Part shown: positions 7,022 through 9,241 of the stretch, piece after piece
Position numbering within the stretch: position 1 is the stretch's first letter
How the letters are laid out: the number at the start of each line of letters is the position of its first letter
DNA from: a virus
Taxonomy: Duplodnaviria; Heunggongvirae; Uroviricota; Caudoviricetes
Direction: 5' to 3' (one strand)
Length of the DNA stretch: 27,426 nt
Virus record (IMG/VR): IMGVR_UViG_2660238683_000003
Coordinates: 1 to 27,426 of that record
Made by a program: the position numbers and the translations under genes
Notes under the pieces: generated by a model
What the model was told of the DNA's origin: nothing
The model's input: only the letters and a program-made list of their open reading frames with translations
Database searches by the model: none

Positions 7022-7211
7022 AAGTTCCCTCCTACGTTGTCAGGAGGTAATGGTATGCAAAGTAACTTCTCACCAGTCATTCAAAATATTTCGATAGATA
7101 ATTGATGTCAGATTTTGATGGTTCCCTATATTTATAAAGAAAAGACGCTTGACAGTAGCTCCATTGGTGCTACCATTCCACCAACGAAAGCTTACCAATA
7201 ATGGGTTTAAT

Positions 7212-7478
7212 ATGAGGTTAATAAACAACTACACCCCCCCCAAATCACAAGATTTGCATCAATTCAAAGAAATGCTTGGGTATACAGGGAATCAAATGGC
7301 AGAACTAGCCGGGATCAGCAGCGATAGCCAGTGGAGAAAATATATAAACAAAGAAAATAACAGATCTATGTCATTGCACATACTTTTTTTCATGGCTGCC
7401 CAAACTTCTCTCGGTAGCAATGAAATAAACACCATACTTAACAAAATGCGAGAAATAGGCGCCACATTTGATAGTTAA
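7212..7478 (+). CDS. Small XRE-type helix-turn-helix protein (about 89 aa)
   Basis: HTH-like segment GNQMAELAGISSDSQWRKY. Very low GC. The ORF-track start at 7149 is TTG, so it was trimmed to the in-frame ATG at 7212; the start is uncertain. Confidence 0.4.
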   Translation: MRLINNYTPPKSQDLHQFKEMLGYTGNQMAELAGISSDSQWRKYINKENNRSMSLHILFFMAAQTSLGSNEINTILNKMREIGATFDS

Positions 7479-7502
7479 ATTTTAAATGGAAGTAAAACAA
7501 CA

Positions 7503-8054
7503 ATGTTTGATTTGTTAACATATTATTTCTATATAATTTTTCAAAAAAAGAAAGCAAAGAAAGCAAGACATATATTTAATTATACCCTAATCTCAAAAAG
7601 AAAAAAATTAATCACATTAAAAAAAACAGGAGTTAAAGTAAGTGAAGACTCAACAATAACAGCTCCATTTTATTTTGAGAATGGCAATATAATTATTGAT
7701 AAAAATGTCTTCATTAACGCAAATTGTGTTTTTCTCGATGCAAAAACAATAGATATTGGATGTAACTCTGCCATTGGTCCCAACGTTGTATTAACAACTG
7801 TCACGCATCCACTAACACCAAGCAAACGTCCCAAAGAAACAATTTGCGCTCCAATAAAAATAGGCCGTAATGTTTGGATTGGGGCAAATACAACTGTGCT
7901 ACCAGGTGTAAAAATAGGAGACAATAGTGTTATAGCTGCAAATAGCGTTGTAAATACTGATGTTCCTGCTAATACAATGTATGCAGGCTCTCCTGCAACC
8001 CTAAAAAAATATTTAAAGGGAAAAGATTATAAGAGGATAGTTGCTCATGATTGA
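7503..8054 (+). CDS. Hexapeptide-repeat (left-handed beta-helix) O-acetyltransferase, maltose/galactoside acetyltransferase-like
   Basis: Repeats of the [LIV]-G-x-x-x-x type (IGCNSAIGPNVVL, IGRNVWIGANTTVLPGVKIGDNSVIAANSVV). ATG start. 3' end overlaps the next gene. About 25-30% GC. Confidence 0.75.
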   Translation: MFDLLTYYFYIIFQKKKAKKARHIFNYTLISKRKKLITLKKTGVKVSEDSTITAPFYFENGNIIIDKNVFINANCVFLDAKTIDIGCNSAIGPNVVLTTVTHPLTPSKRPKETICAPIKIGRNVWIGANTTVLPGVKIGDNSVIAANSVVNTDVPANTMYAGSPATLKKYLKGKDYKRIVAHD

Positions 8055-9189
8055 CAAATTAATATTTACAGTTACACCAATATTTTCAATACCACCTCGT
8101 GGCGCAGCAGCTGTTGAAACTTGGATATATCAAGTCGCAAAGAGAACAAGAATACCAAATCGTATAGCATGCATTCGAGAGGATGGTTTCTCAGAAAAAG
8201 ATATTGTTAATGAGCGATGTTCTATCCATAGAATAGGGTTTAGCCGTCTTTATAAACGGATATTTCAAAAATGGAGCAGAATAGATCCTATTCCATATTC
8301 ACAAAGAGTGTTAAACATTGCTAAAGATTTCAATATCACAAACGATAGCATTATTATTGTTCATAACAGCATGAAACTTTATCGTCAAATTAGAGAGAAA
8401 GCTCCTGACGCAAAAATGATAATGCATATGCATAATGCCTTTACACCGAAAGGGCTAGATAGCAATGTGAAAATGCTTGTTCCAAGTCAGTATTTAAAGG
8501 ATTTTTATGAAAAACATCTTCCTGACGCTGAAATTTGTATAGTTCCTAATGGTACAGAACTACACAATCTAGATAAAGAACTACCCCCGCTAACAAAACA
8601 AGATTTAGGTATTCCCTCTGAGAAAAAAGTTATCTTTTATGCGGGAAGGATCTCCCCTGAAAAAGGGACTGTTTTACTATTACAAGCGTTTAAAAAATTG
8701 ATAAAATCATGTGACAATATAGAACTTGTAGTTGTTGGTGACTACAATAATAAAGATAAAGGAGAAAAAGCTGCATATCAAAAACAAGTAAGGGAACTTG
8801 CTGGAACTATTGGTTCGCGCTGTCATCTTGTTGGCGGGGTAAAACCAGATGATATGTACCGTTACTATCCTATAGCCGATCTAGTTGTAATCCCATCTCA
8901 GTTTCAAGAACCGTTCTGCATGGTTGCTATAGAAGCTATGGGGGCAGGAAGACCCGTTTTAGTTAGCACTCGAGGTGGAATGGTTGAATTTGTAAAAAAT
9001 AACCATACAGGATTTCATATAAATGAACCAATGTTGCCAGAAAGTTTAGCTAGTGATATATATGAAACATTACATTCCGAAAAATTAGAACAAATTGCAA
9101 ATAACGGAAAAAAATATGTATTAGAGAACTATTTATGGTGGCAAGTTACCCATAAATTTGAAAATGTTCTAGAAAATTGGTTTAGATAA
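8047..9189 (+). CDS. GT4-family (GT-B fold) glycosyltransferase
   Basis: C-terminal E-x7-E type motif (EPFCMVAIEAMGAGRPVLVSTRGGMVEFV). ORF-track start is TTG; trimmed to ATG at 8047 with AAGAGGA upstream. Low GC. Confidence 0.75.
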   Translation: MIDKLIFTVTPIFSIPPRGAAAVETWIYQVAKRTRIPNRIACIREDGFSEKDIVNERCSIHRIGFSRLYKRIFQKWSRIDPIPYSQRVLNIAKDFNITNDSIIIVHNSMKLYRQIREKAPDAKMIMHMHNAFTPKGLDSNVKMLVPSQYLKDFYEKHLPDAEICIVPNGTELHNLDKELPPLTKQDLGIPSEKKVIFYAGRISPEKGTVLLLQAFKKLIKSCDNIELVVVGDYNNKDKGEKAAYQKQVRELAGTIGSRCHLVGGVKPDDMYRYYPIADLVVIPSQFQEPFCMVAIEAMGAGRPVLVSTRGGMVEFVKNNHTGFHINEPMLPESLASDIYETLHSEKLEQIANNGKKYVLENYLWWQVTHKFENVLENWFR

Positions 9190-9195
9190 TAAAAC

Positions 9196-9230
9196 AAGCC
9201 ACTGTAAAACAGTCCTGTCAACAGTGGCTT
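9196..9230. terminator. Bidirectional intrinsic terminator between convergent GT gene and U
   Basis: Perfect 10-bp stem aagccactgt / acagtggctt with 15-nt loop. T-rich on the minus-strand side and AT-rich on the plus side. Confidence 0.55.
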
Positions 9231-9241
9231 ATTAATATAAA

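What the first reader, a model, noticed from the sequence alone, without database searches (positions are those of the whole stretch)
7100..9240. AT-rich HTH/acetyltransferase/GT4 cassette on the opposite strand, where P1 carries cin and the alternative C-segment
Between lydA and U the backbone (about 50% GC) is interrupted by roughly 2.1 kb at about 20-30% GC on the plus strand. It encodes a small XRE-like HTH protein, a hexapeptide-repeat O-acetyltransferase and a GT4 glycosyltransferase (acetyltransferase and GT overlap), and ends at a strong hairpin terminator. In P1 this position holds cin plus the inverted Sv'/U' segment. A sugar-modifying moron next to the receptor-recognition genes suggests lysogenic conversion of LPS or another surface polysaccharide. 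That could block superinfection by related phages or change serotype. Composition points to acquisition from a low-GC donor.
Basis: partly seen in the sequence, partly recalled or inferred. Interest (0 to 1): 0.7.

Follow-up and report, generated by a model that had tools for sequence, protein, structure and literature searches.

The report
Phage-borne LPS-core modification cassette
A P1-like phage-plasmid has swapped its tail-fibre inversion switch for a small self-regulated operon that most likely adds a sugar and an acetyl group to the host's LPS core, the structure that phages of this kind bind.

Summary
Window 7086-9240 is a non-P1 insert on the + strand at 34% GC (not 20-30%), against 46-50% in the backbone. 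It carries an 88-aa Xre-type HTH gene, a LacA/Maa-type hexapeptide O-acetyltransferase and a GT4 glycosyltransferase that overlaps it by 8 nt. A strong hairpin follows. In P1 this stretch holds lydC, cin, cixL, Sv' and U'. Here only cixR survives, inside S.

The GT passes NCBI's curated cut-off for the WaaK/WaaD LPS outer-core family. Its closest relatives (67-92% identity) all sit outside waa loci, most of them beside prophage genes or remnants. Genuine WaaK is 54-55% identical.

The HTH is a conserved leader gene. Its sigma-70 promoter has a 17-bp palindrome filling the spacer. In other prophages the same leader precedes other LPS enzymes (OafA-type acylases, WaaZ-like, GT2, Wzy/GT25), often convergent with tail-fibre genes.

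AcT, GT, Tfa, the macro-domain gene and the fibre tip form one 4-kb block shared with an unrelated P2-like phage-plasmid. GT dN/dS is 0.07.

Best reading: an autoregulated lysogenic-conversion moron that alters the LPS outer core. Function is inferred, not shown. A low-GC donor is not needed. New variant of a known kind; moderate interest.

The parts
7149..7176 (+). Sigma-70-type promoter. The -35 box is TTGACA (7149-7154) and the extended -10 is TGcTACCAT (-10 hexamer 7171-7176). A 17-bp palindrome, TAGCTCCATTGGTGCTA (7156-7172), fills the spacer and is the putative operator of the HTH protein.
   Evidence: Best promoter match in 6900-9400, 10 of 12 positions with TG. The palindrome is the only copy in the window, with 0.04 expected by chance. 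The same TTGACA-N2-TAGCaCCAaaGGgGCTA-tTATT architecture stands upstream of HTH homologues in 35 of 80 genome loci, including Burkholderiales, and in Serratia phage BZS1. Binding by the HTH is inferred.
7212..7478 (+). 88-aa Xre-type helix-turn-helix protein. It is the conserved leader gene of the cassette and the putative autorepressor.
   Evidence: Homologues are 86-99 aa and begin at or within two residues of the same Met. phrog_20491, function unknown, E 2.6e-25. Pfam HTH_19 scores only 16.9 bits, below its cut-off. The AF2 model is a five-helix bundle with pLDDT 72.6. The best fold matches are CapH, Aca1, SinR, HigA and R-M C-proteins, all with weak E-values. The family is small: 78 clusters at E<=1e-10 among 1.84 billion proteins.
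7234..7241 (+). Run of 8 C inside HTH codons 8-10 (Thr-Pro-Pro). Possible slippage site.
   Evidence: Sequence. Plasmid CP148313.1 has 7 C here, which is a frameshift. Sequencing error cannot be excluded.
7503..8054 (+). 183-aa left-handed beta-helix sugar O-acetyltransferase of the LacA/Maa/NodL type.
   Evidence: Pfam Hexapep 6.7e-16. Nearest NCBIfam models are maltose and galactoside O-acetyltransferase, but far below their equivalog cut-offs. PDB: LacA 1KQA E 2.7e-28, with the catalytic His of the 'GHP' motif aligned to 'THP'. Homologues of 64-68% identity sit alone in Salmonella Mu-like prophages, convergent with tail-fibre assembly genes.
8047..9189 (+). 380-aa GT4 glycosyltransferase of the WaaK/WaaD LPS outer-core family. 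It is translationally coupled to the acetyltransferase.
   Evidence: NF012028 658 bits, cut-off 618. Glycos_transf_1 2.6e-36. E-x7-E motif present (EPFCMVAIE). Identity: 53.6% to E. coli R2 WaaK, 55% to Salmonella WaaK, 60.7% to the R3 waa-locus homologue, 67-72% to off-locus Salmonella copies, 92% to the pEA32_4-type copy. dN/dS 0.07 against the pEA32_4-type copy.
9193..9233 (.). Hairpin between the convergent GT and U genes. Intrinsic terminator with its T-run on the - strand; possibly bidirectional.
   Evidence: Fold energies and z-scores. Not called by the consensus scan.
9242..9826 (-). Tail-fibre assembly protein (U homologue), of a non-P1 allele. It is always found next to the cassette.
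   Evidence: Caudo_TAP 5.2e-31. phrog_105. The full-length allele occurs only in the 14 plasmids that carry the cassette.
9851..10720 (-). Macro-domain protein encoded between the fibre gene and the Tfa gene. It belongs to the co-transferred block, and its role is unknown.
   Evidence: Pfam Macro 2.6e-18. phrog_2613 8e-138. C-terminal GAHxH repeats resemble the S tip.
10717..12951 (-). Tail-fibre gene S, probably starting at ATG 12951. The tip-encoding part, 10717-11350, is non-P1. An orphan cixR lies at 11800-11823.
6692..7021 (-). lydA holin. Left boundary of the P1 backbone; homology ends at 7081-7085.

Best explanation
The cassette is a self-contained lysogenic-conversion moron that remodels the LPS outer core of the lysogen.

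Proposed mechanism:
1. A near-consensus sigma-70 promoter drives a three-gene operon, HTH-AcT-GT. It reads against both flanking late operons and has no P1 C1 operator nearby.
2. The Xre-type HTH protein binds the 17-bp palindrome in the promoter spacer and represses its own operon. This is the same logic as Aca proteins or R-M controller proteins.
3. The GT4 enzyme acts at the cytoplasmic face on nascent lipid A-core. It adds an alpha-linked GlcNAc (or glucose) to a terminal outer-core glucose, as WaaK and WaaD do.
4. The LacA/NodL-type acetyltransferase O-acetylates a core sugar, possibly the residue just added.
5. The outer-core terminus is thereby altered. This is the structure bound by P1-, Mu- and P2-type fibres. 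The change would block adsorption of related phages and of progeny to lysogens and debris. It may also change O-antigen ligation.

The cassette moves together with a fibre tip, a macro-domain gene and a Tfa gene as one recombination block. In this P1 lineage it replaced the cin/C-segment host-range switch.

Shown: the anatomy, family membership, purifying selection, the recurrent association of the HTH leader with LPS enzymes, and co-transfer of the block.
Inferred: expression in lysogens, HTH binding, donor and acceptor sugars, and the exclusion phenotype.
For: - GT family. It passes the curated cut-off of the WaaK/WaaD model and has the GT4 C-terminal domain and the EX7E motif. WaaK adds the terminal alpha-1,2-GlcNAc that WaaL needs (PMC13293308).
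- AcT family. LacA/Maa type with the catalytic His conserved.
- Operon structure. There is a 24-nt gap between HTH and AcT, an 8-nt AcT/GT overlap and a hairpin at the end.
- Promoter. 10 of 12 matches plus TG, with the palindrome in the spacer. The architecture is conserved with the HTH gene across orders.
- No C1 operator. None lies within 14 kb.
- HTH fold. Fold matches are Xre-type autoregulators.
- Same leader, other LPS cargo:
  - WaaZ-like (Citrobacter).
  - Acyl_transf_3 (Serratia, Lonsdalea, phage BZS1).
  - GT2 (Buttiauxella).
  - Wzy_C plus GT25 (Kosakonia).
  - Hexapeptide AcT (Citrobacter, Enterobacter, Scandinavium).
  - SGNH hydrolase (Burkholderia phage phiE131).
  - WaaK-like GT (Salmonella).
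- Tail-fibre neighbours. These cassettes are often convergent with tail-fibre or Tfa genes. The HTH, small-protein and acetyltransferase trio was noted in Serratia without an explanation (PMC7556043).
- Co-transfer. The contiguous 4-kb block 7503-11544 is shared at 85% identity with a P2-like phage-plasmid. The cassette and this U allele always occur together.
- Selection. GT dN/dS is 0.07 at dS 0.56. Both ORFs are intact in the diverged copy, even though the AcT is only 63% identical.
- Receptor. The P1(S) fibre recognises terminal glucose of the outer core (10.1101/2022.07.24.501295).
Against: - No experiment bears on expression, LPS structure or adsorption.
- Donor sugar is undecided. By my recollection of Kaniuk et al. 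2004 (JBC; the paper could not be fetched), the R3 homologue WaaD is a glucosyltransferase, not a GlcNAc transferase. It is 60.7% identical, closer than WaaK.
- The receptor of this phage's own fibre is unknown.
- One carrier strain already has an R2 core with its own waaK, so simple 'capping' may be redundant there.
- The cassette is rare: 14 of 72,556 plasmids and 10 of 5,426 complete E. coli genomes. Some copies carry an IS element at the 3' end of the GT, or indels.
- The association with tail fibres is recurrent but not universal. In a Pfam scan of the next convergent ORFs in the remaining genome loci, only a handful hit tail-fibre or baseplate families.
- The HTH model is of moderate confidence and its fold matches have E around 0.1.
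- The pEA32_4-type copy has no HTH gene.
Confidence: 0.6

Rival explanations
1. The enzymes modify another envelope glycan, such as O-antigen repeat units, enterobacterial common antigen or colanic acid, rather than the LPS core. This would be classical seroconversion.
For: GT4 enzymes and LacA/WbbJ/WcaF-type acetyltransferases are common in O-antigen and exopolysaccharide loci. The AcT gives weaker hits to WbbJ and WcaF models. Most cargo behind the same HTH leader elsewhere is OafA/Oac-like, a family known for O-antigen acetylation.
Against: The GT matches the core-specific model above its curated cut-off. It is 54-61% identical over its full length to waa-locus enzymes. Other GT4 families score at most 100 bits. 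No Gtr or Wzx/Wzy component is present in the cassette.
Confidence: 0.15
2. The cassette is passenger DNA. It was carried in with the fibre-tip/Tfa recombination block that replaced the C-segment, and it has no role in present hosts.
For: It is always physically linked to one U allele and moves as part of a 4-kb block. It is rare. Some copies carry an ISKpn26 insertion, indels or a truncated GT.
Against: GT dN/dS is 0.07 over dS 0.56, and both ORFs are intact in two backbones. The AcT-GT pairing persists although the AcT allele is only 63% identical. The ISKpn26 insertion leaves all but the last few GT codons intact. The promoter-operator is intact and conserved.
Confidence: 0.1
3. The HTH is the antitoxin or immunity half of a two-gene module that normally includes a small tail-anchored membrane protein. 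In the window it is only a remnant. The enzymes are expressed constitutively or from another signal, and the HTH does not regulate them for any LPS-related purpose.
For: In most loci a roughly 57-aa tail-anchored protein and a strong terminator lie between the palindromic promoter and the HTH gene. HigA and HipB antitoxins are among the fold matches. Many loci have the pair without any cargo. The pEA32_4-type AcT-GT has no HTH.
Against: In the window, and in loci L032, L033 and L035, the small gene is absent. There the palindromic promoter sits directly in front of the HTH and its cargo, so the HTH-operator unit is what is retained with the enzymes. No PADLOC defence model matches.
Confidence: 0.1
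4. The enzymes act on the phage itself (virion or tail-fibre glycosylation) or on small molecules (LacA/Maa-type sugar detoxification), not on the cell surface.
For: The cassette lies next to structural genes. LacA and Maa acetylate free sugars (family names).
Against: It is transcribed against the late operons from a sigma-70 promoter, not a P1 late promoter. The GT belongs to an LPS-core family. The cargo diversity behind the same leader is all LPS-directed: WaaZ-like, Wzy_C, GT25 and OafA-like.
Confidence: 0.05

Closest known systems
WaaK (RfaK) of Salmonella enterica and E. coli R2, and the R3 waa-locus homologue WaaD
   Same: Same NCBIfam subfamily, above the cut-off. Same length (380 aa). 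Full-length alignment at 54-61% identity. GT4 fold with the EX7E motif. WaaK adds the terminal alpha-1,2-GlcNAc of the outer core (PMC13293308).
   Different: It is encoded on a phage-plasmid, not in the waa locus. It is paired with an acetyltransferase and an HTH regulator. It belongs to a set of off-locus copies (67-92% identity), mostly beside prophage genes or remnants, that are closer to each other than to the waa-locus enzymes. Donor and acceptor are unknown.
Seroconverting phage modules (Sf6 Oac; P22/SfV gtrABC)
   Same: Prophage-borne sugar or acetyl transferases thought to change the phage's own LPS receptor and exclude superinfection. Logic as summarised in PMC7556043 and PMC12373910.
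   Different: Those act on O-antigen, using integral-membrane Acyl_transf_3 enzymes or the Gtr bactoprenol pathway at the periplasmic face, and usually lie next to int/attP. Here two soluble cytoplasmic-type enzymes of the core-assembly and LacA families lie next to the tail-fibre genes of a plasmid prophage.
Serratia phage vB_SspM_BZS1 genes p24-p26 (Bujak et al. 2020, PMC7556043)
   Same: p25 is a 57.5%-identical homologue of the HTH. The palindromic promoter is the same. The cargo is an LPS O-acetylase, convergent with tail-fibre genes. The authors noted that p25-p26 pairs always sit next to an acetyltransferase and proposed receptor conversion.
   Different: BZS1 has the small tail-anchored protein p26 and an Acyl_transf_3 cargo. 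The window lacks the small gene and carries a hexapeptide AcT plus a WaaK-family GT. The paper gave no role for p25 or p26 and did not describe the operator or the wider range of cargo.
Aca (anti-CRISPR-associated) and R-M controller (C) proteins
   Same: Small Xre-type HTH proteins encoded within a mobile-element operon, whose strong promoter is overlapped by an inverted repeat. These are the best fold matches.
   Different: No significant sequence similarity (E about 0.1). The cargo is LPS enzymes. DNA binding is untested.
P1 cin / C-segment (and Mu gin / G-segment)
   Same: Same genomic position between lydA and S. cixR is retained intact. AcT homologues occupy the gin-equivalent position in Salmonella Mu-like prophages.
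   Different: No invertase, no second cix site and no alternative fibre genes. Host-range switching is replaced by one fixed fibre plus a surface-modifying operon.
WabB of pO157 / Shigella pINV (plasmid-encoded LPS core GlcNAc transferase)
   Same: A plasmid-borne enzyme that decorates the LPS core. WabB adds GlcNAc to HepIII of the R3 core (10.1101/536201).
   Different: Not a close relative. Outside the cassette family, plasmid-borne GT4 hits are at most about 31% identical over part of the protein. WabB acts on the inner core and is not on a phage.

Membership tests
WaaK/WaaD LPS outer-core glycosyltransferases (NCBIfam NF012028, GT4) | Full-length match above the curated score cut-off | tested here: met
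   658.4 bits against a cut-off of 618, covering residues 3-381 of 382.
WaaK/WaaD LPS outer-core glycosyltransferases (NCBIfam NF012028, GT4) | GT-B C-terminal domain with the E-x7-E motif | tested here: met
   Glycos_transf_1 2.6e-36. EPFCMVAIE is present in the translation.
WaaK/WaaD LPS outer-core glycosyltransferases (NCBIfam NF012028, GT4) | Encoded in the chromosomal waa (rfa) locus, next to waaL | tested here: not met
   It lies on a P1-like plasmid between lydA and U. Genuine waa-locus copies are 53.6-60.7% identical.
WaaK/WaaD LPS outer-core glycosyltransferases (NCBIfam NF012028, GT4) | UDP-GlcNAc (WaaK) or UDP-Glc (WaaD) donor, with terminal outer-core glucose as acceptor | not testable with these tools
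   Needs an enzyme assay or LPS mass spectrometry.
LacA/Maa/NodL sugar O-acetyltransferases (hexapeptide left-handed beta-helix) | Hexapeptide repeats and the catalytic His in the H-P motif | tested here: met
   Hexapep 6.7e-16. Alignment to LacA 1KQA at E 2.7e-28, with 'THP' aligned to 'GHP'.
LacA/Maa/NodL sugar O-acetyltransferases (hexapeptide left-handed beta-helix) | Orthology to Maa or LacA (equivalog cut-off) | tested here: not met
   105.7 bits against a cut-off of 314 for Maa, and 103.5 against 347 for LacA. It is a distinct subfamily.
Xre-type HTH autoregulators | Recognisable HTH domain or five-helix Xre fold | tested here: inconclusive
   Pfam HTH_19 16.9 bits, below the 30.2 cut-off. 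No NCBIfam hit. The AF2 model has five helices and pLDDT 72.6. All top fold matches are Xre-type, but with E about 0.1.
Xre-type HTH autoregulators | Palindromic operator overlapping its own promoter | tested here: met
   The 17-bp palindrome lies in the -35/-10 spacer. It is conserved with the gene in 35 of 80 loci. Binding was not tested.
Classical seroconversion modules (gtrABC; Oac/OafA) | GtrA/GtrB/GtrC proteins or an integral-membrane Acyl_transf_3 acetylase | tested here: not met
   None of the three proteins matches these families. Acyl_transf_3 cargo does occur behind the same leader in other phages.
P1 Cin/cix inversion system | Invertase gene plus two inverted cix sites flanking alternative fibre ends | tested here: not met
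   No cin homologue. There is one cix site only, identical to cixR.
Known anti-phage defence systems (PADLOC) | Match to any PADLOC model | tested here: not met
   No hits for the HTH, AcT, GT or macro protein. The Pfam GT4-conflict hit (45 bits) is much weaker than Glycos_transf_1 (125 bits).

The most novel reading that the evidence does not exclude
The 88-aa HTH and its palindromic promoter form a portable, self-limiting expression platform. Temperate myoviruses of Gamma- and Betaproteobacteria would use it to carry interchangeable LPS-editing enzymes next to their receptor-binding genes. In this lineage the platform, the enzymes, the fibre tip, the chaperone and a macro-domain protein recombine as one unit. 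A phage would then acquire a new receptor specificity and the matching receptor-masking function in a single event, replacing the invertible host-range switch. Core-level conversion by WaaK-family enzymes, which appear widespread as off-locus copies in Salmonella, would be an overlooked layer of LPS diversity.
Probability: 0.3. Interest if true: 0.7.

Novelty: new variant of a known kind. Interest (0 to 1): 0.55.

Why it matters
Lysogenic conversion of LPS is textbook for O-antigen. I found no description of phage-borne enzymes of the core-assembly (WaaK) family.

The outer core is the receptor for P1, Mu, P2 and many therapeutic phages, and it dictates where O-antigen is ligated. If the cassette edits it, P1-like phage-plasmids could change phage susceptibility, transduction range and possibly serology of E. 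coli, E. albertii and E. fergusonii. These elements also spread resistance genes.

The conserved HTH and operator give a simple sequence handle for finding such cassettes. They also give a testable regulatory model.

The co-transfer with a fibre tip suggests that receptor recognition and receptor masking evolve as a linked pair.

Tried and rejected
- Low-GC foreign donor. Rejected: all close homologues are enterobacterial, and the waa homologues are 37-41% GC.
- Defence system. No PADLOC hit.
- Relationship to pO157 WabB. No close plasmid homologue outside the cassette family.
- The Gifsy-encoded phage-resistance gene of PMC12724215. It is an ATPase and is unrelated.
- mig-3 as a name for the Salmonella prophage copy. 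No paper was found.
- Transposon-like insertion. No flanking repeats.
- ncRNA. No Rfam match.
- C1 control. No C1 operator near the cassette.
- Universal linkage of the HTH family to tail fibres. Not supported. A Pfam scan of 138 neighbouring convergent ORFs gave only a few tail hits, partly because ORF calling in high-GC loci was crude and tail fibres are poorly covered by Pfam.
- Core-typing all ten carrier E. coli genomes by guessing chromosome accessions. Only one worked (R2); four guesses failed.
  - The record and genome counts imply that 9 of the 10 carriers also have a chromosomal R2- or R3-type homologue, against 34% overall.
  - This is arithmetic inference, and the strains may be related.
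- Kaniuk et al. 2004 could not be fetched. The statement that R3 WaaD is a glucosyltransferase rests on my memory.

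
Full report
**What is there**

The window is a P1-like phage-plasmid. The genes lydB (6252-6695) and lydA (6692-7021) lie on the - strand. Homology to P1 at 99% identity ends at window 7081-7085. It resumes at 11351, inside tail-fibre gene S.

In P1 the replaced interval (31245-36021) holds lydC, cin, cixL, Sv', U', U and most of Sv. The window has neither cin nor lydC. 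It has exactly one cix site, identical to P1 cixR, at 11800-11823. The invertible host-range switch has therefore been lost.

The replacement DNA has two parts.
- On the - strand: a non-P1 fibre tip (10717-11350), a macro-domain gene (9851-10720) and a non-P1 tail-fibre assembly gene (9242-9826).
- On the + strand: the reported cassette (7086-9240).

**Check of the observation**

The cassette is 34.3% GC, against 49.6% and 45.8% in the flanks. GC3 is 0.20-0.23 in the two enzyme genes. The figure '20-30%' applies only to local windows.

The three ORFs are as described. The HTH gene starts at ATG 7212, not at TTG 7149. All 28 aligned homologues begin at or within two residues of the equivalent Met and are 86-99 aa long. 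The TTGACA at 7149 is a -35 box.

AcT and GT overlap by 8 nt behind a good ribosome-binding site.

The hairpin at 9193-9233 is strong. Its T-run is on the - strand, so it is first of all the terminator of the fibre operon.

No Rfam family matches the region, and no flanking repeats suggest a transposon.

**The enzymes**

The GT scores 658 bits against NCBIfam NF012028, 'lipopolysaccharide N-acetylglucosaminyltransferase', whose cut-off is 618. It has the GT4 C-terminal domain and the EX7E motif.

Its pairwise identities are as follows.

| Compared with | Identity |
|---|---|
| E. coli R2 WaaK (in its waa locus) | 53.6% |
| Salmonella WaaK (in its waa locus) | 55% |
| R3 waa-locus homologue | 60.7% |
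| Very common Salmonella copy near a tail-fibre assembly gene and an integrase fragment | 66.8% |
| Salmonella copy between umuDC-like genes and an endonuclease, preceded by an HTH homologue of 63% identity | 71.5% |
| Copy next to a Mor-like gene beside lysC | 69.7% |
| Copy on a P2-like phage-plasmid | 92% |

The phage enzyme thus belongs to a set of WaaK-family copies that lie outside waa loci, most of them beside prophage genes or remnants. WaaK adds the terminal alpha-1,2-GlcNAc that the O-antigen ligase requires (PMC13293308). By my recollection of Kaniuk et al. 2004, the R3 homologue WaaD transfers glucose instead. The donor sugar here is therefore open.

The acetyltransferase is a LacA/Maa-type left-handed beta-helix enzyme with the catalytic His conserved. 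It scores far below the equivalog cut-offs of those enzymes. Homologues of 64-68% identity sit alone in Salmonella Mu-like prophages. There they are convergent with tail-fibre assembly genes, in the place where Mu has gin.

**The HTH gene and its promoter**

The HTH protein belongs to a small family. A profile search of 1.84 billion proteins found 78 clusters at E<=1e-10. It matches phrog_20491, of unknown function.

The AF2 model is a five-helix bundle with pLDDT 72.6. Its fold matches are Xre-type regulators: CapH, Aca1, SinR, HigA and R-M controller proteins. All have weak E-values.

The promoter at 7149-7176 is the best sigma-70 match in the region. A 17-bp palindrome, TAGCTCCATTGGTGCTA, fills its spacer. 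This is the only copy in the window.

The same architecture, TTGACA-N2-TAGCaCCAaaGGgGCTA-tTATT, stands upstream of HTH homologues in 35 of 80 genome loci. These run from Enterobacterales to Burkholderiales, and the motif is also present in Serratia phage BZS1.

In most of those loci the promoter lies about 285 nt upstream of the HTH gene. A roughly 57-aa tail-anchored membrane protein and a strong terminator lie in between. In the window and a few other loci the small gene is absent and the promoter abuts the HTH gene.

I infer that the HTH represses this promoter. This was not tested. No P1 C1 operator lies near the cassette, and the cassette reads against both flanking late operons.

**Recurrent cargo behind the same leader**

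Directly downstream of HTH homologues I found the following.

| Cargo | Where |
|---|---|
| WaaZ-like Kdo-III transferase | Citrobacter braakii |
| OafA/Oac-type acyltransferase | Serratia, Lonsdalea, phage BZS1 |
| GT2 | Buttiauxella |
| Wzy_C-family protein plus GT25 | Kosakonia |
| Hexapeptide acetyltransferases | Citrobacter, Enterobacter, Scandinavium |
| SGNH hydrolase | Burkholderia phage phiE131 |
| WaaK-like GT | Salmonella |

In many of these the next gene is a convergent tail-fibre or Tfa gene. Many other loci have no cargo or lie elsewhere in prophages. The link to LPS enzymes and fibres is therefore recurrent, not universal.

Bujak et al. (PMC7556043) noticed the trio in Serratia. 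They wrote that they had 'no clue' about the HTH and the small protein, and suggested that the acetylase converts the receptor.

**Linkage with the fibre module**

Window 7503-11544 covers AcT, GT, U, the macro gene and the last ~830 bp of S (its distal, C-terminal end). It is one contiguous block, 85% identical to a 49.5-kb P2-like phage-plasmid of E. albertii and to related contigs.

The full-length U allele occurs only in the 14 plasmids that carry the cassette. Thirteen are P1-like, from E. coli, E. fergusonii and E. albertii. The fourteenth is the P2-like element.

Between the two backbones GT dN/dS is 0.07 at dS 0.56. Both enzyme ORFs are intact, although the AcT alleles are only 63% identical. 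This argues for function and for selection on the pairing.

Another P1-like plasmid carries a different, CysE-like acetyltransferase at the same junction.

**Mechanism proposed**

I propose an autoregulated moron expressed from the prophage. Its GT caps a terminal outer-core glucose, and its AcT O-acetylates a core sugar. This would change the structure that P1-type fibres bind. P1(S) recognises terminal outer-core glucose (10.1101/2022.07.24.501295). It might also change the O-antigen ligation site.

Known seroconverting phages act on O-antigen with large membrane enzymes (PMC12373910). Here the enzymes are of the cytoplasmic core-assembly type.

**Caveats**

- There are no expression or LPS data.
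- The donor sugar is unknown, and so is the receptor of this fibre.
- One carrier strain has an R2 core with its own waaK.
- Counts suggest that 9 of 10 carriers have an R2- or R3-type chromosomal homologue, against 34% overall. This is indirect.
- The cassette is rare and occasionally damaged.
- No PADLOC defence model matches.

**Verdict**

The low-GC-donor idea is not supported.

This is a new variant of a known kind, lysogenic conversion of LPS. Two side findings deserve a test: the conserved HTH-operator platform, and the co-transfer of the fibre tip with a receptor-editing operon.

Noticed in passing
window 9851-10720 (- strand): A 289-aa macro-domain protein is encoded between tail-fibre gene S and the Tfa gene U. 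It matches phrog_2613 (unknown function) and has no PDB sequence match. Its C-terminal 60 aa carry GAHxH repeats like the fibre tip. The same gene sits between the fibre and Tfa genes in about 70 plasmids and in phage Chuche. dN/dS is 0.16. Macro domains deacetylate O-acetyl-ADP-ribose, so a virion-associated esterase paired with the lysogen's acetyltransferase is conceivable, as proposed for BZS1 p27/p24. This is pure speculation.
   Followed up: partly
window 7234-7241: A run of 8 C lies inside the HTH gene (Thr-Pro-Pro codons) in an AT-rich region. Plasmid CP148313.1 has 7 C, which is a frameshift, plus two indels in the GT. This could be slipped-strand switching of the repressor or sequencing error.
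   Followed up: partly
window 11800-11823: An intact cixR site, identical to that of P1, sits inside S. No cin gene and no second cix site are present anywhere in the window. This is an orphan recombination site left by the lost C-segment switch.
   Followed up: yes
L010, L018, L021, L025-L048, L110 (upstream of HTH homologues): In most related loci a conserved tail-anchored membrane protein of about 57 aa (e.g. MSNEMTQAELAKVNAEIAKLIAETSKLNRESAWYPIVVASGLIGAVATITTVLLKFI; phrog_6330, unknown function) lies between the palindromic promoter and the HTH gene. A perfect terminator hairpin (AAGCCCCGAAAGGGGCTTTTT) follows it. This small gene is missing in the window. It might be a toxin or exclusion partner of the HTH.
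   Followed up: partly
L106 (Salmonella chromosome CP039582.1, 1.94 Mb); L010-L013; L026; L007: Salmonella enterica commonly carries second, off-locus WaaK-family genes. One is near a tail-fibre assembly gene in a prophage remnant and is listed in 2509 blocks of the collection. Another, with an HTH leader, lies in an island next to umuDC-like genes near thrS. These copies are closer to the phage GT (67-72%) than the true waaK is (55%). I found no paper on them.
   Followed up: partly
L112 (NZ_CP033848.1, P1-like plasmid): At the same lydA-U junction, another P1-like plasmid carries a CysE-like 'serine acetyltransferase' on the + strand, overlapping the end of the Tfa gene. It has no HTH and no GT. 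The junction looks like a hotspot for acetyltransferase morons.
   Followed up: partly
window ~9169-9172 (equivalent position in NZ_CP104510.1 and NZ_CP117630.1): ISKpn26 is inserted in the last codons of the GT gene in two cassette-bearing plasmids. In NZ_CP104510.1, the one examined, the flanking alignment pieces share 4 bp (apparent target duplication).
   Followed up: partly
L114 (NZ_AP027588.1, chromosome of carrier strain LR-64-1): This carrier strain has an R2-type waa locus with its own waaK and an IS1-disrupted waaZ. The record and genome counts imply that 9 of 10 carrier genomes have an R2- or R3-type chromosomal homologue, against 34% of all complete E. coli genomes.
   Followed up: partly
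window 23249-23265 and 24919-24935: Two near-perfect matches (1 mismatch each) to the P1 C1 operator consensus ATTGCTCTAATAAATTT. They lie far from the cassette.
   Followed up: no
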